Below, piece by piece: positions 1 through 61,779 of a stretch of DNA of 64,000 bases. Both the position numbers and the translations under genes were made by a program. The number at the start of each line of letters is the position of its first letter. Position 1 is the stretch's first letter. The stretch covers positions 16,565-80,564 of the forward strand of contig JBDROB010000075.1 of assembly GCA_043810355.1 (NCBI GenBank), in the 5' to 3' direction. This DNA is from Candidatus Woesearchaeota archaeon (GTDB taxonomy: Archaea; Nanobdellota; Nanobdellia; Woesearchaeales; JAGVYU01). The notes beneath the pieces are model-generated. The model ran no database searches and had not been told where the DNA came from. It saw only the letters and a list, made by a program, of their open reading frames with translations.

Positions 1-464
1 GAATTGATACATTTAAAAGATATGACCAACACAAATTAATTTGGAAACTTTATATTCGGGGAAAAAGAAATATTTTAAGGTTTTACAAAGAAATCGGATT
101 CTTATTTGATTATAAGAATAAAAAGTTGGAGTATGTGGTGTATAATTATCAGAAAGACAGTTCATTAACAGATTTTGTCCCATTTATTTCTGATTATATT
201 AGGAATATATGTAATCATGAGTTTATACAAAAGCATAATTTTGATAGGTATACAAATATGAGGGATAATCATCAAAAGGTCACAAATATTGTCATGTCTA
301 AAACAGGATATGATCTTACTAGTATGTTTGAATATATTCTTCATTATAATTATCTTTTTGAGAAAGTAGTAAGTATTCAAGAAGCTGGTATAAAAAGAGT
401 TTTCTCAATTAAAGTTAAAAGTGACTGCCATTCATTTATCTCAAATGGGCTTATTAGCCACAAC
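1..464 (+). mobile_element. Intein inserted at the gyrA-a site (after the catalytic Tyr, before the TEARL Thr). Only the C-terminal ~154 aa are in the window: a homing-endonuclease-like region plus splicing blocks F and G.
   Basis: '...[22 protein letters not shown]|TEARL' has the block G terminal His-Asn (codons 459-464) followed by the +1 Thr at 465. This is the same site as the mycobacterial GyrA inteins. Confidence 0.7.
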
Positions 465-2819
465 ACAGAGGCACGCTTAAACAAATTAGCTGAAGAGATG
501 CTTGTTGACATTGATAAGAAAACAGTTAAGTTTGTTCCAAACTTTGATGAAAGTCTTGAAGAACCATCGGTTCTTCCTTCAAAAGTGCCTAATCTTCTTG
601 TAAATGGTTCATCTGGTATTGCAGTGGGTATGGCTACTAATATTCCTCCTCATAACATGTCTGAGATATGTGATGGAGTTATCCATGTTATTGATAATCC
701 TGAAGCTACATCAAAAGAATTAATGGAATTTGTCAAAGGACCAGATTTCCCTACAGGAGGGATAATCCAAGGTGTTATAGGTCTTAAATCAGCTTATAAG
801 ACTGGCAGGGGAAAGATTATAGTTAGGGCTAATCATAAGATTGAAGAGTTAAAAAAGGATAAGAATAGGATTATCATCAATGAGATTCCTTATCAGGTTA
901 ATAAGTCTATGTTGATTGAGGAGATTGCAAATCTTGTTAAGGATAAGAAAATAACAGGAATCTCTGATTTACGGGATGAATCTGACAGGGATGGCATGCG
1001 AATTGTCATCGAGCTTAAGACAGGAGCTAACCATGAAGTTGTTGTAAATCAATTGTTTAAGCATTCAAGATTGCAGATAACTTTTGGGATTATTCTTTTA
1101 TCTCTTGTTGATAACCAGCCAAGAGTGCTTAGTTTGCCTATTATGATCAAGGAATTCATTAATCATAGGCAGGTTGTTGTTAGAAAAAGGACTGAATTTG
1201 ATTTGACAAAAGCTGAGGATCGTGCTCACATTTTAGAAGGATTGATCATAGCCTTAAACAACATTGATGAGACTGTGGCTCTAGTTAAGAAATCAAAGAC
1301 AGTTGATGAGGCTAGAAATGCATTGATATCAAGGTTCTCTTTGACTGAAAAACAGGCTCAGGCAATTCTTGATATGCGATTGCAGCGCCTGACAAGCTTA
1401 GAGCAGGATAAGATAAAAGATGAGCATGATAAACTACTTGAGCTGATCAAGGAGTTGAAGGGGATTTTGGCTGACGAAAACAGGATTCTGTCAATAATCA
1501 AATCTGAACTAAGGGAGTTGAAAGAAAATTATGGTGATGAAAGGAAGACTGTCATCAGTGAAAAAGAGAAGGAAGTCATTGATGATGTAGATCTTATCCA
1601 GTCTGTGGATATGGCAATTACAATTAGCAATAATGGTTATATCAAGAGGACTCCTTTGAATATTTATAAGAGTCAAAAAAGGGGAGGTAAAGGTATTATT
1701 GCTGCTACAACAAGAGAAGAGGATTTTGTCTCTGACTTGTTTATTGCCAATACTCATGATTACATTTTATTCTTCACAGAAAAAGGTAATGTTCATTGGA
1801 AAAAGGTTTATGAGATCCCTCTTGGTGCAAGACAGGCTAAAGGGACTCCAATTGTAAATTTATTGAATGTTAAGGATGAAGGAAAGGTTACTGCATCAAT
1901 CCCTATCAAGGAATTCAGGGATGATGAATATCTTGTAATGGCAACTAAAAAAGGCATTGTAAAAAAGACAAGCCTTATACAATACTCAAGGCCTAGAAGA
2001 GGGGGTATTATTGCGATTGTTATTGATAATGATGATGAGCTAGTCGATGTTAGACTTACAGATGGTTCAAAAGATATACTTTTGGCTACAAAAAAAGGTC
2101 TGGCTATTCGTTTTAATGAAAAGGATTGCAGGCCTATTGGAAGGGTCTCAAGAGGTGTAAGAGGCATTTCCCTTAAAAAAGATGATGAGGTTGTTGACTT
2201 GATCACTTTGGAAGAAAATACTTCAATACTTACTGTGACTGAGAATGGATATGGTAAGAGGACTGATGTTGAGGAGTATAGGAGGATTGGTAGAGGAGGA
2301 GTTGGAGTAATAAATATTCAATGTGATGAAAGAAACGGCAATGTTGTTTCTGTTAAGAGTGTGCTTGATGTTGATGAGATCATGGTCATTAGCAGGAATG
2401 GGATAACCATCAGGATTAAGTCAGAGGATATATCAATCATAGGCAGGAACACAAAAGGAGTCCGTATCATGAGGCTTGGAGAGAATGATAAGGTTGTAAA
2501 AGCTGCCAAGATCATAAAGGATGATCATGATGATAATAACAATAATAACAACAATGACCACAATGACAATAATGCTAATGATAAGGATGATGAAGAAAAA
2601 GAAGTGGATGATAAAATTAATAACAAGGATAATATAGGAAAAGATATTGATGATAATATTGAAGATGACCAGCATGATAATGACCAACAAGATGATGAAA
2701 AAGATCAATACAATGAACCAAAAATACTAGAGTCTGACATAAACAAGACTGCTGTGGAGCAAATCAATGGGGATAGTCCAGAAAATGAAGATAATGAAGA
2801 ATTTAAAGAAAATGAATAA
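1..2819 (+). CDS. gyrA: DNA gyrase subunit A, 5'-partial. The frame is open from base 3 (no stop before the listed Met at 126). An intein C-terminal portion is followed by the GyrA C-extein from Thr at 465, and the protein ends in an Asn/Asp-rich low-complexity tail.
   Basis: C-extein '[13 protein letters not shown]...[24 protein letters not shown]...EIPYQVNK...[18 protein letters not shown]...[14 protein letters not shown]' matches GyrA at high identity. Translation from base 3 gives I D T F K R Y... with no stop codons. Confidence 0.85.
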
Positions 2820-2918: not shown

Positions 2919-4109
2919 ATGAAAAATATGAAAGCATTAGCAATAACATCGATTGGAATTGAGGATATATGTTCATTAGAGATAAAAGACTTGATCAATA
3001 CAGATTCAGAACCACATAAAGGATGTGTTGAGTTTAATATAAAAAAACATCAAGACCTGTTCAAACTTTGCTACCTTTCCCAATCCAGTTCTAGAATTCT
3101 TCTATTATTGTCAAATTTCATGGCAGGGTCATCAAAGTCAGGAAAGTCTGAAAAGTCAATAAAGTCAGTATTCTTGAATGAGCTTAAAAAAAATATTTCA
3201 AAAATTGATTTTAGTGAATGGCTTGATGATAATATTAGGTTTGCTGTAAAATGCCAGAGGATAGGAATCCATGATTTTAATTCAGTTGATATTGAGAAGA
3301 CAGCTGCTGACTCAATCAATGATTACAAGGCTAAAGTGGATCTTAAGAGTCCAGATATGATTATATACATATATTTGATTGACAATGAATGTTATATTGG
3401 AATTGACTTTTCTGGAAAAGACCTGAGCAAGCGTGATTACAAGATTTTTAGCAACATCCGCTCGCTTAAGTCAAATATTGCTTATTCATTGGTCAGAATT
3501 GCAGATTTTAGAAAAGACCAGATTTTGATTGATCCTTTCTGTGGTTCAGGAGAGATTCCGATTGAAGCCACTATTTATGCATCAAACTTTCCTCAAAATC
3601 ATTTTTCAAAAGACTCTTTTGCTTTCTTGAATTTTCCAATGTTCAAGGATTTTGATTTTGACGAGTTCTTTGATAATATTGATAAGAATATCAGGCAAGA
3701 TAAAACAAATATATATGCTTTTGATAACCAGTTAAAGAATATACTGGCTGTGAAGAAAAATGCAAAGATTGCCAGTATCCAGAAATATTTGTCAATATCA
3801 AGGGTGGATATTGATTGGCTTGAGACAAAGTTCAAGCAGAACTCTGTTGATATTATTATCACTCATATTCCAGATGTTCCTAAGCACAATGATCCAAAGC
3901 CAATCCTCAATGTTTTGGATGACTTTTTCTGGGAGGCAGAATTCATTCTAAAACCATCTGGTTCAATTGTCACAATCTCAAGAAGCATTGAATCATTAAA
4001 GCCACCTATTAAGAAATATAAATTCACAATCAAAGAGACCAGAGAGGTTTGGCAGGGAAAAGAGAGATTGATTGTCTTAAATATCCAGAAAAATAAGCAA
4101 CCTTTATAA
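2919..4109 (+). CDS. THUMP-domain class I SAM-dependent RNA methyltransferase (Trm14/RlmL-like, COG0116 family) with a degenerate motif IV.
   Basis: N-terminal 'ALAITSIGIEDICSLEIKDL' THUMP-like region. Motif I 'LIDPFCGSGEIPIEA'. The expected (D/N)PP(Y/F) is replaced by 'IITHIPDV'. Confidence 0.55.
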   Translation: MKNMKALAITSIGIEDICSLEIKDLINTDSEPHKGCVEFNIKKHQDLFKLCYLSQSSSRILLLLSNFMAGSSKSGKSEKSIKSVFLNELKKNISKIDFSEWLDDNIRFAVKCQRIGIHDFNSVDIEKTAADSINDYKAKVDLKSPDMIIYIYLIDNECYIGIDFSGKDLSKRDYKIFSNIRSLKSNIAYSLVRIADFRKDQILIDPFCGSGEIPIEATIYASNFPQNHFSKDSFAFLNFPMFKDFDFDEFFDNIDKNIRQDKTNIYAFDNQLKNILAVKKNAKIASIQKYLSISRVDIDWLETKFKQNSVDIIITHIPDVPKHNDPKPILNVLDDFFWEAEFILKPSGSIVTISRSIESLKPPIKKYKFTIKETREVWQGKERLIVLNIQKNKQPL

Positions 4110-4135: not shown

Positions 4136-4483
4136 GGAAGGGAAATTAGCTTACGGTGGCTCTTTGGAGTCATTGAGGAAAGTCCGCCCACCATTCGCTC
4201 TGATTTATCATTGCGATTATAGCCACTCATGGGAATGAGTTGCAGTGATGTGAGGCAACCGCTCAGAAACGATACCGCCTTAAGGTATAGGATGAAATCC
4301 GTGAACCGCTTGGCAACAAGCGCAAGTTAACCGGAAGACGTTCTTAAGGAATGGATGAAACGGCGAGTCCAGGCTGGTGCAAGTAGATTATCTACGCTTA
4401 GTTAAATGCTAACCAGGCTATCAAATAAGGCGCTAAGTCTTTTTTATCAAGGGCCTGACAGAAGGCGGCTTATTCCTTTCCTA
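4136..4483 (+). ncRNA. rnpB: RNase P RNA (archaeal type), about 350 nt. Ends are approximate.
   Basis: CR-I 'GAGGAAAGUCCGCC' at ~4177-4190. CR-V 'ACAGAAGGCGGCUUAUUC' at ~4457-4474. The P4 strands CCGCC/GGCGG pair. P1 pairing 5' GGAAGGGA (4136-4143) with 3' UCCUUUCC (4474-4481). An oligo-T tract follows at 4486-4496. Confidence 0.72.
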
Positions 4484-9108: not shown

Positions 9109-9510
9109 ATGCAAGATAGAAGAAATCTAAGATGGGGAATTGCACACATATATTCTTCATATAATAATACTATAATCCATATTACAGACATAACTGGAAC
9201 AGAAACACTTGCAAGAACTTCAGGAGGAATGGTTGTTAAATCTGACAGGATGGAGTCTTCTCCGACTGCAGCAATGATCGCCTCTAAAAAAGCTGCAGAG
9301 ATAGCAAAAGATAAGGGAATTGATGGTATCCATGTTAAGATAAAGGCTCCTGGAGGTCACAATGGCCCAAATAATCCAGGACCTGGAGCTCAAGCTGCAA
9401 TCAGGGCTTTGTCCAGGATGGGATTGAAGATTGGAATAATTGAGGATGTAACTCCTATACCTCATGATGGTTGCAGGAAAAAAGGCGGTAGGAGAGGGAG
9501 GCGTGTCTAA
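9109..9510 (+). CDS. rps11: 30S ribosomal protein S11 (uS11).
   Basis: '[35 protein letters not shown]...[23 protein letters not shown]'. Confidence 0.9.
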
Positions 9511-9511
9511 A

Positions 9512-10297
9512 ATGGAAATAAGTTTTTTGGGCAAGGATGAAAAACATAACAGGGTATCTTTTATCTTAAAAGGAGCAGATCCTACAATAGCTAACACCAT
9601 TAGAAAAAATATTATTGAAAGTGTTCCAACAATGGCGATTGATGATGTTGAATTTAGAAAAAACAGTTCTGCATTATATGATGAGATAATTGCACACAGG
9701 CTTGGTCTGATCCCTATTAAGACTGATCTGAAAAGTTATGATTTGAAACAAGGATGTAAATGCAAAGGTGAAGGCTGTGCTCGTTGCAGTGTGAAAATGA
9801 CTTTGTCTGAAAAAGGTCCTGGTATTGTTTATGCTTCAAGTATCAAGTCAAAGGATTCTCAGATAAAGCCAATCTTTCCAAAGACTCCTATTGTGAAATT
9901 GATCAAGAATCAGGAATTGGAGTTTGAGGCAACAGCTGTTTTAGGGATTGGAAAAGACCATACAAAATGGTCTCCTGGCCTTGCTTATTACAAATATCTT
10001 CCAATTATTGAGATAAAAGGCAACATTGGTGATCCTGAAAAGATTTGTGAGATATGTCCAGTTGATGTTTATGAAGTAAAGAACAGCAAACTTGTAGTGA
10101 ACAAGGATAAGATTAATGATTGTCATTTGTGCGGTGCTTGTGTTGATATCGAGCCTAATATCAGCATTAATGAGTCAGATAAGGATTTTGTTTTTTATGT
10201 CGAGTCTTGGGGACAGTTATCAAATAAGGATATTGTTGTTAAGGCTTTGGAATTAATGGATGAAAAACTTGATGAATTTGATAAGCTCCTCAAGTAG
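9512..10297 (+). CDS. rpoD: DNA-directed RNA polymerase subunit D (Rpo3) with a 4Fe-4S ferredoxin-like insert. The start is adjusted to the ATG just after the S11 stop.
   Basis: 'MEISFLGKDEKHNRVSFILKGADPTIANTIRKNIIESVPTMAIDDVEF'. Cys cluster 'CEICPVD...CHLCGACV'. Confidence 0.85.
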   Translation: MEISFLGKDEKHNRVSFILKGADPTIANTIRKNIIESVPTMAIDDVEFRKNSSALYDEIIAHRLGLIPIKTDLKSYDLKQGCKCKGEGCARCSVKMTLSEKGPGIVYASSIKSKDSQIKPIFPKTPIVKLIKNQELEFEATAVLGIGKDHTKWSPGLAYYKYLPIIEIKGNIGDPEKICEICPVDVYEVKNSKLVVNKDKINDCHLCGACVDIEPNISINESDKDFVFYVESWGQLSNKDIVVKALELMDEKLDEFDKLLK

Positions 10298-57945: not shown

Positions 57946-60390
57946 ATGACTAATAAAATTAAAGAAATCAAACAAGATTATGTTTCTAGAGCAACATACA
58001 AGGATTTGGATGCAACTCAAGCAGATGCAATTTATAATGCATTTCAGGCAACAACACATAACAGTGAAGGGAAAAAACTTACTCTTCAAGAAAGAAGAAA
58101 ATCAGTTGCTGACGAATTTGGTGTCAAGTATGGTACTGTCGGAACAGTTGCAAGATACCAAGGAAGAGATTCCTCACAATTAGATAGGTCTGTTTCTCAA
58201 TTATCAGAAACAGATATTGAAAAAGCTCGTCAGAGATATAAACATTCTGATGATTCTGTTGATACAATTTTAGGAGACCTAAATCTTACTGCAAAGGCTT
58301 TTTATTCAGGAGTACTTGAAGGTTTTGATTATAGGAGAAGTGATGATAAGCCTCGTCTGGCAAGGATGGCAAAAGCTCGGCAAAAAGCTAATGGATATAC
58401 CACTTCTCCAGCTGACATAGCTGAAGTTGTTGATGCACCAGAAGATCAGCCTGCTTTCAGATATCTTGCTGAACCTCAAGAAAGTTCTGCTAAACCAGGA
58501 AATCAAACAAAAAGTATAGAATCAAAATCAATTGTTGACTTTAGTTATGATAATCCAGATCAATCTGTTGTTGACACTAGATTAATAGGTCATTTTTTAG
58601 TTTCAAAAGCTGCTTCAGCAGAAAGGCATGGGGATCATGGACCAGAAAGTGGACCAGTAACTCAAGCAAAGCCTTTAGAAGCTGTTGTTGGAGAAGCTAA
58701 TCCAGTTTATGCAGGGGGAAGAGTTCCTGATGATTCATCAAGGTCCAAATATGTTTCTGATGTTAGAACTCCTGAAGTTACAATGCATGCACCAGATGGT
58801 CCAAGAGCTGAGGGAAGAGGTCCTTCTGATGATTCTCATGCTCGAGGTGATGCTAGTGGCCATGATGACAGAGTTATTTTAGGAGAAGATCATAGTTCTA
58901 GACCTGTTGAAGAACCAAGGTATTCAGGCAGTGGCTCAGGAGATGGTTCAGGTGGAGACAGTTCATTACCTCCAGAAAGTACAGAAAGACCAGCCAGAAT
59001 TTGGTATCAAACTTGGAAAGGTAAATTAGTATCAGGTTTGACTGCTGCTGCAATGCTTGCAGTTTCATTTGGTGGCGGATGGTTTGCTCGAGGAATGTAT
59101 AATCCAAGTCAAGCTGCTGCTGGATCTCTAGATCCTGCTCCTATAGCTGCTGAAGCGCCTGAAGTACCTACACATCCATTAGGAGGAGTCATTCCAGGTT
59201 TCCCAGATCCTAATTCAATTGAAGATCATGTAAAAAGCCAATATAATGGAGAAGGTGGATTTGATTTAAGAAAGCACTTATGGGAGACTCTTGTTCCAGG
59301 TTCAGAAGATTCTGGAAGAAAGCCTTATACAGGAAGTTCAGAACAGAATGAGGCATTCTTAATGTTTTTGAGGACTTTGAATCCTGATATGGTTAAGGCT
59401 GCAGTTGCTTCTTACGATGCACCAGAAGAACCTGCTGCTCCAGTTGTCCAACCGGCACCAATACCTGCAGAGAACCCAACTGTAGCACCTGTTGCACAGT
59501 CAGCACCAGCAGCTCCATTGGCAGGTTTCCCAGATCCTAATTCAATTGTTGACTGGCTGACAAGTAATTATAATGATGCTGATCAAGGATTAAGAGCATA
59601 TTTATGGGAAGCTTTTGCTCCTGAACCAATCCAAAGAAGTTTAGGGGATGAATATCAAGGAAGATCATTGACACCTGAACAAAGGCAATTACAAAATAAT
59701 TGGTTACTTGGATTCTTAAAAATGAGAAATGATCAAAGACCTCAAGATATTACTGAAGCGATTGCTGATTATAGTCTTGGAATAGAAAGTGGAGCGCCTT
59801 TAGAGGCTTATGAAGGATCAGGTTCAGAAGAGCAACCAACTCTGGCACCTTTAGAGGAGATTACAGTAGGTGGACCTGCCGAAGTTATTGTTCCTCCAGC
59901 AGTTTTAACTGCAATCCAGATTCAAAATATTGGAGACATGTTTGAGATCCCTTTCAGAGGAACTTCAATTTATAATTTGAGTCAGATTGATTCAAGTGAT
60001 AATAGGCTACCAAGCAATCCAACACCTGTTTCAGCTTTAGTGGGTAACTATGATAGTAATGCTGACGGAAATATTGACAGTGTTGCTGAGTTGAGCACAT
60101 TCATTTTAGGATTGACAACAAGAGGTGGGCTTGATTCCCCTGTTCCAGGTGAGTCAGATGAATCTTTTGTTAGGCTTGTAGCTAATGCTGGTTTTGGACC
60201 AGATGTCGCTTCTCAATTAAGGTCTGCATTAAATACAGAGGAAGTCTCAAATGAAGAATTGAATAGGGCTTCAGAAGTTGCTTTAAGATTAGGGGCTGCT
60301 ATTCAGACAGAGACTCCATTATATGATAATGGCACAGATTTAGTGATTGCAGAACCAGAAATCGCAATTAAATATTTTAATGGATTTTAG
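57946..60390 (+). CDS. Membrane-anchored protein. It has an N-terminal cytoplasmic region with an HTH-like segment, one TM helix, and an extracellular domain with two ~90-aa 'GFPDPNSI' repeats and a dockerin/EF-hand-like Ca-binding loop. GC is higher than the surroundings.
   Basis: 'LTLQERRKSVADEFGVKYGTVGTVARY' HTH-like. TM 'LVSGLTAAAMLAVSFGGGWFA'. Repeats 'GVIPGFPDPNSIEDHV...' and 'APLAGFPDPNSIVDWL...'. 'YDSNADGNIDSVAELSTFILGL'. Confidence 0.55.
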   Translation: MTNKIKEIKQDYVSRATYKDLDATQADAIYNAFQATTHNSEGKKLTLQERRKSVADEFGVKYGTVGTVARYQGRDSSQLDRSVSQLSETDIEKARQRYKHSDDSVDTILGDLNLTAKAFYSGVLEGFDYRRSDDKPRLARMAKARQKANGYTTSPADIAEVVDAPEDQPAFRYLAEPQESSAKPGNQTKSIESKSIVDFSYDNPDQSVVDTRLIGHFLVSKAASAERHGDHGPESGPVTQAKPLEAVVGEANPVYAGGRVPDDSSRSKYVSDVRTPEVTMHAPDGPRAEGRGPSDDSHARGDASGHDDRVILGEDHSSRPVEEPRYSGSGSGDGSGGDSSLPPESTERPARIWYQTWKGKLVSGLTAAAMLAVSFGGGWFARGMYNPSQAAAGSLDPAPIAAEAPEVPTHPLGGVIPGFPDPNSIEDHVKSQYNGEGGFDLRKHLWETLVPGSEDSGRKPYTGSSEQNEAFLMFLRTLNPDMVKAAVASYDAPEEPAAPVVQPAPIPAENPTVAPVAQSAPAAPLAGFPDPNSIVDWLTSNYNDADQGLRAYLWEAFAPEPIQRSLGDEYQGRSLTPEQRQLQNNWLLGFLKMRNDQRPQDITEAIADYSLGIESGAPLEAYEGSGSEEQPTLAPLEEITVGGPAEVIVPPAVLTAIQIQNIGDMFEIPFRGTSIYNLSQIDSSDNRLPSNPTPVSALVGNYDSNADGNIDSVAELSTFILGLTTRGGLDSPVPGESDESFVRLVANAGFGPDVASQLRSALNTEEVSNEELNRASEVALRLGAAIQTETPLYDNGTDLVIAEPEIAIKYFNGF

Positions 60391-60402
60391 CCAGGTGATC
60401 AA

Positions 60403-61779
60403 ATGAAAGGATATGATATGACCAGAAGGGGATTTTTAGCAGCAGCAGCAACTGCATTAGCAGGATGTGCAACAACATATGATCAATCTCAACTATCAGG
60501 ACGACATCCAGTTCCTGGACAGAGAGAACCTACTCCTATAGGAGATCAAGCTTTGTCTTTAGAGGCAAAGATTCCAGAAGGGGATGTTGCAGTTCTTTAT
60601 GATTATGTCAAGGATCACCTTCCAGGTGGAGACAGATATTTTGTTCCGTTCATTGAGCAAGGAATTGCACAAGCCTTTGCAGGTTATGTTCCAGCGCCGG
60701 CAAAAGCTGGAGTAAGAAATATTAATTTTGGAGACAATGAAAGGACTGGTTTTCTTTCAAAACCTGAATCTGCAGCACTTTACACTTATTTGTTTGAGAG
60801 ATTTATGGAAGATGTCCAGCAGGTTGCTCATCTTTCAATTAATCCAGAGAGGACAAATGGTGTTACAGACGTTTTTGTTTATCATAATGGGCCAAGGATG
60901 CCGAGCATTAATTACACTTCAAGAGAAGTGAAAGGTTGGAATAAGAAGACAACTGAGAAAGATACTGTTTACAATTCAATTGATCTTTGTTTTACAAATG
61001 CTGTTGAAGTCAGGCATAAGGTAAGGAATTATAGGGGTCCTGTTGAGTTTTTTATCAATGCAGCTTTGCAGGGATATAATACAACAGCTTCTCTTGGTGA
61101 GCCAATTATTGGTGTCGCTGGTTATACTGCAGGTGCAGCTACAAGAGGGGCATTGACATGGCTTTTCCACAAAAAGGATGAGCAAGATGCATTCTATGAT
61201 GCTAATGTTGATCTTGGTTGGGGTTCCCAGAATCTTGGACCAGCTCAGAAGATGTGGGAGACATTGAGCAATCATAATATGGAAAGCCCAGTTGTCTATC
61301 TGGCGCCTATTGAGTCAAAACCAGGAAGTGTAGATACAATGTTGATGGTTCTTGCAAATAATCCTAATTTTGCAGTACAACCTTTTCCAACACCAAATTA
61401 TGATCCAGAGACTGGAAGAGTCATGGGTATGAATATTGTTTCACCTCCACAGTATGGTGATAATTTTGCAAAGAATCTTGTTATAAGTATGTTGGGAGAA
61501 ATGGCAGATGCATATGTTAGGGGCTTGTTGATTGAAGATTTGATCCTTGATAAGCTTGAGGATGACAAGCAATTGCTGCCTTTTGGAGTTCCGATTCCAA
61601 TTACAAGGATTTTACCTTTGATAATGCCTTTGCCGATTCCATTCTGTCCTAGACCAAGTCCAATGATAGGTGGAGGTTGGTTTGGAGGCGGTGCTTTTGG
61701 AGGAGCAGGTTTAGGTGGAGCTGGACTTTTAGGAGGAGGATTTACTGGTGGAGGAGCGTTAATTCCAGGTCCATTATAA
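60403..61779 (+). CDS. Secreted Tat lipoprotein with a bacterial-type lipobox and a Gly-rich C-terminal tail. Function unknown.
   Basis: 'MTRRGFLAAAATALAGCATT' has the twin-arginine and the L-A-G-C lipobox. C-terminal 'GGGWFGGGAFGGAGLGGAGLLGGGFTGGGA'. Confidence 0.6.
   Translation: MKGYDMTRRGFLAAAATALAGCATTYDQSQLSGRHPVPGQREPTPIGDQALSLEAKIPEGDVAVLYDYVKDHLPGGDRYFVPFIEQGIAQAFAGYVPAPAKAGVRNINFGDNERTGFLSKPESAALYTYLFERFMEDVQQVAHLSINPERTNGVTDVFVYHNGPRMPSINYTSREVKGWNKKTTEKDTVYNSIDLCFTNAVEVRHKVRNYRGPVEFFINAALQGYNTTASLGEPIIGVAGYTAGAATRGALTWLFHKKDEQDAFYDANVDLGWGSQNLGPAQKMWETLSNHNMESPVVYLAPIESKPGSVDTMLMVLANNPNFAVQPFPTPNYDPETGRVMGMNIVSPPQYGDNFAKNLVISMLGEMADAYVRGLLIEDLILDKLEDDKQLLPFGVPIPITRILPLIMPLPIPFCPRPSPMIGGGWFGGGAFGGAGLGGAGLLGGGFTGGGALIPGPL

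What the first reader, a model, noticed from the sequence alone, without database searches (positions are those of the whole stretch)
1..470. Intein in gyrA at the canonical gyrA-a (Tyr|Thr-Glu-Ala-Arg-Leu) site
The reading frame is open from the window edge. It encodes a homing-endonuclease-like segment ending in a textbook intein block G ('NGLISHN') immediately before '[13 protein letters not shown]', the GyrA sequence that follows the catalytic Tyr. GyrA inteins at this exact site are best known from mycobacteria. One in an AT-rich archaeal gyrase points to horizontal intein (and gyrase) traffic.
Basis: partly seen in the sequence, partly recalled or inferred. Interest (0 to 1): 0.55.

Follow-up and report, generated by a model that had tools for sequence, protein, structure and literature searches.

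The report
GyrA intein in a Woesearchaeote
The window opens inside a self-splicing protein insert (an intein) sitting right next to the catalytic tyrosine of the DNA gyrase A gene of a tiny DPANN archaeon; it is a real but ordinary member of a well-known intein family, and a near-identical sister genome lacks it, which shows it is or recently was mobile.

Summary
Frame 3 is open from base 3. Nt 3-464 encode the last 154 residues of an intein ending ...[14 protein letters not shown]. Thr+1 (465-467) begins [13 protein letters not shown], the GyrA sequence that follows the catalytic Tyr, and gyrA runs on to the stop at 2817-2819.

The fragment matches NCBIfam's intein-containing GyrA model (E 4e-21) and the M. 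xenopi GyrA intein. It also matches dozens of ~1150-1300-aa GyrA proteins with the same junctions (AAMRY|C...HN|TEA[RK]) and a nested LAGLIDADG domain. Named hosts include Patescibacteria, Nanoarchaeota/Woesearchaeota, Methanospirareceae and Heimdallarchaeota.

The host is archaeal: there is an archaeal RNase P RNA, and a Woesearchaeota MAG has a gyrA about 95% identical in nucleotides. That MAG carries the empty site (SMRY|TEARL) in the same gene order. The 108 nt after the junction are four times more diverged than the rest of the gene, which fits homing or precise loss with co-conversion.

The N-terminal ~280 intein residues, the two LAGLIDADG motifs and the N-extein lie upstream of the window, and I could not retrieve them.

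Archaeal GyrA inteins are already recorded (23 in Villain 2022). I see no evidence of recent gyrase transfer.

Verdict: new member of a known kind, modest interest.

The parts
3..464 (+). C-terminal 154 codons of a large LAGLIDADG-type intein, cut by the window edge. About 270-290 intein codons and about 130-135 N-extein codons are expected upstream.
   Evidence: Open frame. NF038098 E 4.3e-21. 41 relatives at E<=1e-10, mostly GyrA with the same junctions. In the alignment, family inteins are 415-447 aa.
3..101 (+). Tail of the second LAGLIDADG half-domain plus a block-H-like motif ([11 protein letters not shown], nt 69-101). The catalytic LAGLIDADG helices are NOT in the window.
   Evidence: Aligned to P0020 residues 414 onward, inside its Pfam LAGLIDADG_3 match 364-446. 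71% identical to the L047 fragment.
102..395 (+). Region between the endonuclease core and the C-terminal splicing blocks. It is conserved across the family and includes the near-invariant KHNFDRY motif (nt 231-251). Its role is not established.
   Evidence: Alignment of window, P0003, P0006, P0007, P0013, P0020, P0037 and P0151; coordinates.
396..437 (+). Intein block F ([14 protein letters not shown]) with the conserved His.
   Evidence: Aligned to Mxe GyrA intein PVYSLRVDTADHAF (PDB 1am2) and to all family members.
438..464 (+). Intein block G (ISNGLISHN): penultimate His and terminal Asn (codon 462-464).
   Evidence: TIGR01443 intein_Cterm scores 16.9 bits against a cut-off of 15.6.
465..467 (+). 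Thr+1, the first C-extein residue and the nucleophile for transesterification. It is the residue right after the catalytic Tyr in intein-free GyrA.
   Evidence: L001 intein-free allele reads ...SAASMRY|TEARL. Solved GyrA structures align Y-TEARL here.
465..572 (+). Extein tract next to the insertion site with four-fold elevated divergence from the intein-free sister allele (candidate co-conversion tract).
   Evidence: 18/108 mismatches against 89/2142 in the rest, Fisher p 1.5e-6. It is the highest of all sliding windows. dS 0.85 against 0.17 and dN 0.086 against 0.0125.
465..2819 (+). gyrA C-extein: breakage-reunion domain from Thr after the active-site Tyr, a six-bladed C-terminal domain with GyrA box QKRGGKG (nt 1674-1694), a D/N/E-rich 100-aa tail (2517-2816) and the stop codon (2817-2819).
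   Evidence: Pfam DNA_topoisoIV 6e-112 and DNA_gyraseA_C in six stretches. NF004043 scores 955.8 bits against a cut-off of 902. Coordinates.

Best explanation
The first 464 bases are the 3' end of a large class-1 intein with a nested LAGLIDADG homing endonuclease. It is inserted in the gyrA gene of a Woesearchaeota (DPANN) archaeon, between the catalytic Tyr and the following Thr. This is the same site as in the mycobacterial GyrA inteins.

Inferred mechanism. The gene is translated as one precursor of roughly 1,350 aa. The intein folds and removes itself by protein splicing in four steps. First, an acyl shift occurs at an N-terminal Cys; this residue is not visible here but is present in every full-length relative. 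Second, the N-extein is transferred onto Thr+1, which is visible. Third, the terminal Asn154 cyclises, helped by His153 and the block-F His143; all three are visible. Fourth, an O-to-N shift restores ...MRY-TEARL... and hence an active gyrase.

At the DNA level, the nested endonuclease is expected to cut intein-free gyrA alleles at this site. Repair then copies in the intein together with some flanking extein.

What is shown: the identity, the site, the conserved C-terminal catalytic residues, an empty-site allele in a sister genome with about 95% nucleotide identity, and a locally hyper-diverged flank. What is inferred: splicing competence, the missing N-terminal half, current endonuclease activity, and the direction of the event (gain or loss).
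For: The frame is open across the junction and HN|T is present. NF038098 GyrA_w_intein matches at E 4.3e-21 over the fragment, and TIGR01443 intein_Cterm scores above its cut-off. Mxe GyrA intein 1am2 aligns over blocks F and G at E 4.4e-5. 152 representative proteins match at E<=1e-3, and most of the long ones have AAMRY|C[ILV]TGD...HSFxxNGFxxHN|TEA[RK]. The relatives carry Pfam LAGLIDADG_3 and Intein_splicing nested inside DNA_topoisoIV. L001 (Woesearchaeota MAG JAZDHV010000019.1, GyrA MFH1053311.1) has a 920-aa intein-free GyrA that is 97% identical, with the same downstream THUMP methyltransferase gene. Extein dN/dS is about 0.07 (0.0125/0.169), so the gene is functional, which requires splicing because the insert abuts the active-site Tyr. 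The flank tract 465-572 has dS 0.85 against 0.17 elsewhere. Between the intein and its L047 relative, pN is 0.16 and pS is 0.79, which indicates purifying selection on the endonuclease-proximal region. The host is archaeal: RNase P_arch scores 118 bits.
Against: The N-terminal splicing blocks A and B, both LAGLIDADG motifs and the N-extein are outside the window. They could not be recovered from any collection, so an intact intein is inferred rather than seen. Pfam Intein_splicing on the fragment alone is below its cut-off (21.6 against 35.8 bits), as expected for half a domain. The flank-divergence signal rests on 18 differences, and another part of the gene reaches 14 per 108 nt. Its polarity, gain or loss, is not resolved by the L002 outgroup. 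No close full-length relative exists: the best are 38-44% identical, and the only closer one is a broken 1.1-kb scaffold.
Confidence: 0.88

Rival explanations
1. The intein was ancestral in this lineage and was precisely lost in the L001 lineage, for example by recombination with an intein-free allele. On this reading the window's lineage did not gain it recently, and the diverged flank belongs to L001's history.
For: In the first 36 extein residues the window matches the outgroup L002 and the general GyrA consensus better than L001 does: 2 differences against 7. A second intein +/- pair (P0020/P0173) shows such polymorphism is common.
Against: At the nucleotide level the two alleles are about equally distant from L002 in that tract (73% against 71%). 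A donor allele with a consensus-like flank would give the same pattern. Either direction still implies a mobile intein.
Confidence: 0.4
2. Assembly chimera: the intein-bearing 5' end (about nt 1-570) comes from a different co-occurring strain and was joined to this contig by the assembler.
For: Divergence from L001 steps abruptly, from about 17% in 465-572 to 0% over the next 170 nt. Intein GC is 26.4% against 35.7% for the extein. The only close relative, L047, itself looks like a broken or chimeric scaffold.
Against: The frame is seamless and the junction is exactly at the canonical site. A co-conversion tract predicts the same step. Lower GC is usual for homing-endonuclease inserts. Even if this reading is true, an intein at this site in a closely related population is still implied.
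Confidence: 0.08
3. The intein is degenerate: it is either incompetent for splicing, making gyrA a pseudogene, or it splices but its homing endonuclease is dead and it is fixed and immobile.
For: Endonuclease decay is the common fate in the homing cycle (established knowledge). The catalytic LAGLIDADG motifs cannot be seen. L047 shows a frameshifted relative.
Against: The pseudogene version is contradicted by the intact 938-codon frame, the conserved H143, H153, N154 and T+1, and extein dN/dS of about 0.07. The dead-endonuclease version is not excluded, but pN/pS of about 0.2 against L047 and the presence/absence polymorphism argue for recent activity.
Confidence: 0.25
4. It is not an intein but a lineage-specific insertion domain of GyrA, or a free-standing endonuclease gene fused by chance.
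For: None beyond the truncation at the window edge.
Against: There is specific homology to GyrA inteins, including the solved Mxe GyrA intein. Blocks F and G and HN|T lie at the exact residue where the intein-free allele is contiguous.
Confidence: 0.01

Closest known systems
Mycobacterium xenopi GyrA mini-intein (PDB 1AM2, 4OZ6)
   Same: Same host protein and same insertion point (after the catalytic Tyr, with Thr as +1). Blocks F and G are homologous: window [38 protein letters not shown] against YYAKVASVTDAGVQPVYSLRVDTADHAFITNGFVSHN. Like Mxe, it has Ser rather than Asp in the V-Y/F-S-L/I position of block F.
   Different: Mxe is a 198-aa mini-intein without an endonuclease. The window's intein belongs to a group of 415-447 aa with a nested LAGLIDADG domain. 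The hosts differ too: an actinobacterium against a DPANN archaeon.
NCBIfam NF038098 'intein-containing DNA gyrase subunit A' and the large mycobacterial GyrA inteins (M. leprae, M. kansasii and others; from my own knowledge of InBase and Fsihi 1996)
   Same: The fragment aligns to profile positions 386-538 of the 1232-position model at E 4.3e-21, and the extein follows colinearly. The large LAGLIDADG intein sits at the same site.
   Different: The whole-protein score of 851.9 is below the 1850-bit cut-off, because the N-terminal ~415 residues are missing and the sequences are distant. The model is an 'exception' rule for particular bacterial proteins.
Uncharacterised same-site GyrA inteins of uncultured archaea and CPR bacteria: Nanoarchaeota MBU4284448.1 and MBU3941909.1, Woesearchaeota MBA3064710.1, the P0020 cluster, Patescibacteria MEK7674032.1, Jorgensenbacteria PIP29913.1, Minisyncoccales MFW6283352.1, Methanospirareceae MHC1635935.1 and Heimdallarchaeota MCE7742874.1
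   Same: Identical junctions and architecture, the same conserved KHNFDRY region, and in part the same host phylum.
   Different: They are only 33-44% identical to the window's intein over the shared 154 aa, whereas several of them are 55-67% identical to each other. The window's intein, together with the L047 fragment at 71%, forms a separate sub-lineage.
The 23 intein-containing archaeal GyrA sequences noted and discarded by Villain et al. 2022 (PMC9348778)
   Same: They document that archaeal GyrA inteins exist.
   Different: That paper gives no site, type or lineage details in the text I read, so overlap with this lineage is unknown.

Membership tests
Intein (HINT-domain protein-splicing element, class 1) | C-terminal splice junction: penultimate His, terminal Asn, and +1 Cys/Ser/Thr | tested here: met
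   ...ISHN|T at nt 456-467. TIGR01443 scores 16.9 bits against a cut-off of 15.6.
Intein (HINT-domain protein-splicing element, class 1) | Block F with the conserved His upstream of block G | tested here: met
   [14 protein letters not shown] aligns to Mxe GyrA and to all relatives.
Intein (HINT-domain protein-splicing element, class 1) | N-terminal Cys/Ser1 (block A) and block B TxxH | not testable with these tools
   These lie upstream of the window, and the source contig is absent from the collections. Every full-length relative has MRY|C[ILV]TGD and NHP[IL]L.
Intein (HINT-domain protein-splicing element, class 1) | In-frame insertion whose removal restores a contiguous conserved host protein | tested here: met
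   The C-side was tested directly. The intein-free allele L001 reads SMRY|TEARL with 97% identical extein.
Intein (HINT-domain protein-splicing element, class 1) | Demonstrated protein splicing | not testable with these tools
   Needs expression or proteomics. Indirect support comes from extein dN/dS of about 0.07.
GyrA intein at the Tyr|Thr site ('gyrA-a' allele family) | Insertion exactly between the active-site Tyr and Thr of ...MRY|TEARL... | tested here: met
   GyrA models and solved structures start aligning at Thr155, that is nt 465; see also L001.
GyrA intein at the Tyr|Thr site ('gyrA-a' allele family) | Sequence homology to known GyrA inteins | tested here: met
   NF038098 E 4.3e-21 on the fragment. 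1am2 E 4.4e-5. Relatives reach E 1e-28.
LAGLIDADG homing-endonuclease-containing (large) intein | Two LAGLIDADG motifs with catalytic acidic residues nested between the splicing halves | not testable with these tools
   The motifs lie upstream of the window, and the fragment itself gives no LAGLIDADG Pfam hit. The relatives and the 71%-identical L047 fragment carry LAGLIDADG_3, with motifs LAFILGSFVSEGS and FLKSHFEGDG.
LAGLIDADG homing-endonuclease-containing (large) intein | Evidence of mobility: an empty-site allele in close relatives and a co-converted flank | tested here: met
   The L001 empty site is clear. The flank divergence is significant but small in sample and unpolarised.
DNA gyrase subunit A (as opposed to Topo IV ParC) | Equivalog-level model score, GyrA box and six-bladed C-terminal domain | tested here: met
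   NF004043 scores 955.8 against a cut-off of 902, and TIGR01063 scores 927.2 against 877. QKRGGKG lies at nt 1674-1694. DNA_gyraseA_C matches in six stretches.

The most novel reading that the evidence does not exclude
The window's intein, with its only close relative the L047 fragment, is a previously undescribed and still actively homing sub-lineage of the GyrA Tyr|Thr intein family. It circulates in groundwater or sediment DPANN archaea, and it belongs to a pool of gyrA inteins exchanged across the bacteria-archaea boundary between CPR bacteria and DPANN or Asgard archaea. The window/L001 pair would then capture a very recent invasion or loss, with a ~100-nt co-conversion tract.
Probability: 0.35. 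Interest if true: 0.45.

Novelty: new member of a known kind. Interest (0 to 1): 0.3.

Why it matters
For annotation, the gene should be called an intein-containing gyrA. The true GyrA is the spliced product, and the 5'-truncated ORF call starting at TTG 126 is an artefact.

For biology, gyrase is a key enzyme in organisms that have it, and the insert abuts the catalytic tyrosine, so this archaeon depends on protein splicing for supercoiling. The pair of about 95%-identical genomes, one with and one without the intein, is a natural before/after example of intein mobility in DPANN archaea, which cannot yet be manipulated genetically. The intein-free allele gives a ready-made target site for testing the endonuclease.

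None of this changes what is known about inteins. Same-site GyrA inteins are already in public databases for many uncultured lineages, and archaeal cases have been reported.

Tried and rejected
1. I tried several routes to recover the upstream half of the gene.
- The search for homologous proteins with the intein plus 20 extein residues gave only a 118-aa fragment, P0001.
- The genome-contig scan gave 46 GyrA loci, and none had this intein.
- The metagenome-contig scan gave only a 39%-identical intein-GyrA, L048.
- The viral-contig scan found nothing.
- An exact look-up of the downstream THUMP methyltransferase found nothing on record.
- A cluster look-up showed L001's GyrA is a singleton with no hidden intein-bearing member.
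So the source contig is not in these collections.

2. Pfam on the fragment alone gave no LAGLIDADG hit and a sub-threshold Intein_splicing hit. This is uninformative because only half a domain is present.

3. I tried to polarise the diverged flank with L002 as the outgroup. The result was inconclusive: 73% against 71% nucleotide identity.

4. I compared intein and extein identities to look for a donor lineage. The window's intein is 33-40% identical to everything named, so no donor can be proposed.

5. dS against L047 is saturated (pS 0.79), so only a qualitative pN << pS statement is possible.

6. A Pfam scan of the 39-aa reverse ORF at the 3' end of L047, which I suspected to be the start of ribosomal protein uL13, gave no hit.

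7. I considered and rejected a non-intein insertion domain, a gyrA pseudogene and recent gyrase transfer (see the rival explanations).

8. I did not attempt structure prediction. The fragment is half of two domains, and the full-length relatives came from a tool whose outputs the predictor does not accept.

9. Telenti 1997 (PMC179553) is not held, so statements about the mycobacterial inteins beyond the PDB and NCBIfam matches rest on my own knowledge.
Full report
**1. What is in the sequence**

Frame 3 is open from nt 3 to a TAA at 2817-2819. The mechanical ORF list starts the gene at TTG 126, but that is only the first start-like codon after the window edge.

The first 154 codons (nt 3-464) end in [23 protein letters not shown]. 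Codon 465-467 is Thr, followed by [28 protein letters not shown]....

All GyrA models begin to align exactly at that Thr:
- Pfam DNA_topoisoIV covers residues 155-503 against profile positions 92-431.
- The NCBIfam gyrA equivalogs NF004043 (955.8 bits, cut-off 902) and TIGR01063 (927.2, cut-off 877) start at residue 155.
- Solved GyrA and ParC chains align their Tyr-Thr-Glu-Ala-Arg/Lys-Leu to the window's Asn-Thr-Glu-Ala-Arg-Leu.

The C-extein is a true gyrase A. It has a GyrA box QKRGGKG at nt 1674-1694 and six C-terminal-domain blades.

**2. Is it an intein of the GyrA family?**

Yes.
- NCBIfam NF038098 ('intein-containing DNA gyrase subunit A') matches fragment residues 6-155 to profile positions 386-538 at E 4.3e-21.
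- TIGR01443 (intein C-terminal splicing region) scores above its cut-off.
- The solved M. xenopi GyrA intein (1am2) aligns over the last 42 residues at E 4.4e-5. The conserved block-F His, the penultimate His and the terminal Asn are all in place.
- An exhaustive phmmer search of 1.84 billion cluster representatives gives 152 hits at E<=1e-3 and 41 at E<=1e-10.
- Most long hits are 1150-1300-aa proteins with ...AAMRY|C[ILV]TGD... at about residue 120-135 and ...HSF[VI]xNGF[IV][NS]HN|TEA[RK]... at about 545-580. These are GyrA proteins carrying an intein at the same site.
- In four of them Pfam finds LAGLIDADG_3 and Intein_splicing nested inside DNA_topoisoIV.

In a multiple alignment these inteins are 415-447 aa long, and the window fragment aligns to their last ~155 residues. 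Window aa 1-33 correspond to the end of the second LAGLIDADG half-domain and a block-H-like motif. Next comes a family-conserved region with a near-invariant KHNFDRY motif, then blocks F and G.

So 'homing-endonuclease-like segment' is only loosely right. The catalytic LAGLIDADG helices, the N-terminal splicing blocks and the N-extein lie upstream of the window. That is about 270-290 intein codons plus about 130-135 extein codons.

**3. Host**

An archaeal RNase P RNA lies at 4136-4481 (118 bits). GC is about 33%. The nearest genome locus is L001, from a Candidatus Woesearchaeota MAG (JAZDHV010000019.1). Its GyrA (MFH1053311.1) is 97% identical to the window's extein in amino acids and 95.2% in nucleotides, and the same THUMP-methyltransferase gene follows it. 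Other genes in the window (NAC, RpoD/Rpb3-like, STT3, glycosyltransferases) fit an ordinary DPANN chromosome.

**4. The empty site and the flank**

L001's gyrA is a 920-aa ORF with no insert. It reads ...GDSAASMRY|TEARLKKISEEML.... This is the intein-free allele of essentially the same species-level lineage.

I compared the two genes codon by codon. The first 108 nt after the junction carry 18 differences (16.7%), against 89 in the remaining 2142 nt (4.2%); Fisher p is 1.5e-6. This is the highest density of any 108-nt window, though another window reaches 14. All five TEARL codons differ synonymously. In the tract, dS is 0.85 against 0.17 elsewhere, and dN is 0.086 against 0.0125. The next 170 nt are identical.

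This is the pattern expected if the intein moved in or out by double-strand-break repair that co-converted about 100 nt of flanking extein from a more divergent allele. The direction is unresolved. At the protein level the window's tract is closer to the L002 outgroup than L001's is. At the nucleotide level the two are equidistant. A chimeric assembly joint would give a similar step, and I cannot exclude it without reads.

**5. Function**

Outside the tract, extein dN/dS is about 0.07, so the gene is maintained by selection. The insert separates the catalytic Tyr from the next residue, so an unspliced product cannot be an active gyrase. Splicing competence is therefore the strong inference. 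It is supported by conserved His143, His153, Asn154 and Thr+1, and by the same Ser in block F that the splicing-proficient Mxe intein has.

Endonuclease activity cannot be judged from the window. Two observations suggest recent activity but do not prove it. The first is the presence/absence polymorphism. The second is pN 0.16 against pS 0.79 over 78 codons between the window and its only close relative, the L047 fragment, which is 71% identical in amino acids. The intein is more AT-rich than the extein, with GC 26.4% against 35.7%.

**6. Comparison with what is known**

Same-site GyrA inteins are classically mycobacterial (my own knowledge; the matches to PDB 1am2 and 4oz6 and to NF038098 support this).
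- Novikova et al. 2016 counted 50 bacterial GyrA inteins in Actinobacteria, Aquificae, Chloroflexi and Proteobacteria. For archaea they listed GyrB but not GyrA (PMC4760082).
- Villain et al. 2022 found 23 intein-containing archaeal GyrA sequences and removed them from their data set. They also showed that gyrase is present in most Woesearchaeota after ancient transfers (PMC9348778).

My searches show named carriers of this very intein family in the following groups:
- Nanoarchaeota and Woesearchaeota (MBU4284448.1, MBU3941909.1, MBA3064710.1, and the P0020 cluster)
- Methanospirareceae
- Heimdallarchaeota
- Patescibacteria, Jorgensenbacteria and Minisyncoccales

So an archaeal, even a woesearchaeal, GyrA intein at this site is not new. 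What is distinctive is that this one is only 33-44% identical to all the others, while several of them are 55-67% identical to each other.

Across the family there are cross-domain pairs whose inteins are more alike than their exteins. Nanoarchaeota P0013 and Minisyncoccales P0022 are 67% identical in the intein and 60% in the extein. Heimdall P0014 and P0022 are 54% and 39%. This supports horizontal intein traffic in general. For the window's intein no donor can be named. Nothing indicates recent transfer of the gyrase itself.

**7. Verdict**

It is unsupported on 'gyrase traffic' and overstated on rarity.

I classify this as a new member of a known kind. Interest is about 0.3, mainly for the clean intein+/intein- allele pair in DPANN archaea.

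Noticed in passing
L006:~900-2800, L009:~9300-10080, L044:~3100-4010; protein P0026: There is a second intein insertion site in gyrA, 12 residues upstream of the catalytic Tyr: GQGNFG|CFT.DTKVKLTDGR...NFALASG[IV]FVHN|S[IV]DGD. It holds a mini-intein in 'archaeon ARS54', in a Planctomycetia MAG and in P0026. In an Omnitrophota MAG it holds a large version with a K/R/W-rich repeat insert. P0026 carries this intein and the Tyr|Thr-site intein together, 12 residues apart.
   Followed up: partly
L047:1-1091 (ENA scaffold ANAN16-1...scaffold_518656): This is the only close relative (71% aa identity) of the window's intein, and it is a broken copy. Block A is missing and stop codons sit upstream. A frameshift near nt 730 splits it into two called genes. 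After ...EFIMK (about nt 975) the homology ends and an unrelated reverse-strand ORF begins. It is either a decaying intein/endonuclease remnant or a chimeric scaffold.
   Followed up: partly
proteins P0020/P0174 (1267 aa) vs P0173 (828 aa, MEK6969092.1, Nanoarchaeota): A second intein-plus/intein-minus pair of GyrA alleles falls in the same 90%-identity cluster. This indicates that presence/absence polymorphism of this intein recurs in DPANN archaea.
   Followed up: partly
proteins P0013, P0014, P0022; locus L048: In some cross-domain pairs the inteins are more similar than the exteins. Nanoarchaeota against Minisyncoccales is 67% against 60%, and Heimdallarchaeota against Minisyncoccales is 54% against 39%. 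This hints at exchange of gyrA inteins between CPR bacteria and archaea.
   Followed up: partly
window 4136-4481 (+): An archaeal RNase P RNA (Rfam RF00373, 118 bits, full-length match) lies just downstream of the THUMP methyltransferase gene.
   Followed up: no
window 2517-2816 (+): GyrA ends in a ~100-aa Asp/Asn/Glu-rich low-complexity tail (25 D, 22 N, 14 E) that includes an N7 run. The tail differs by indels and substitutions from that of the sister genome L001.
   Followed up: no
window 57946-61779 (+): GC rises to 0.39-0.41, against about 0.33 elsewhere, over two large adjacent ORFs (814 and 458 aa) that have no Pfam match at E<=1e-5. This may be a foreign island.
   Followed up: no
window 1-64000: ARAGORN finds no tRNA gene in 64 kb. 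At gathering thresholds Rfam reports only the RNase P RNA.
   Followed up: no
window 231-251 and the aligned positions in all family members: A near-invariant KHNFDRY motif sits between the LAGLIDADG core and block F in these GyrA inteins. It is absent from the Mxe mini-intein. Its role is unknown; it may be an extra DNA-contact element.
   Followed up: no
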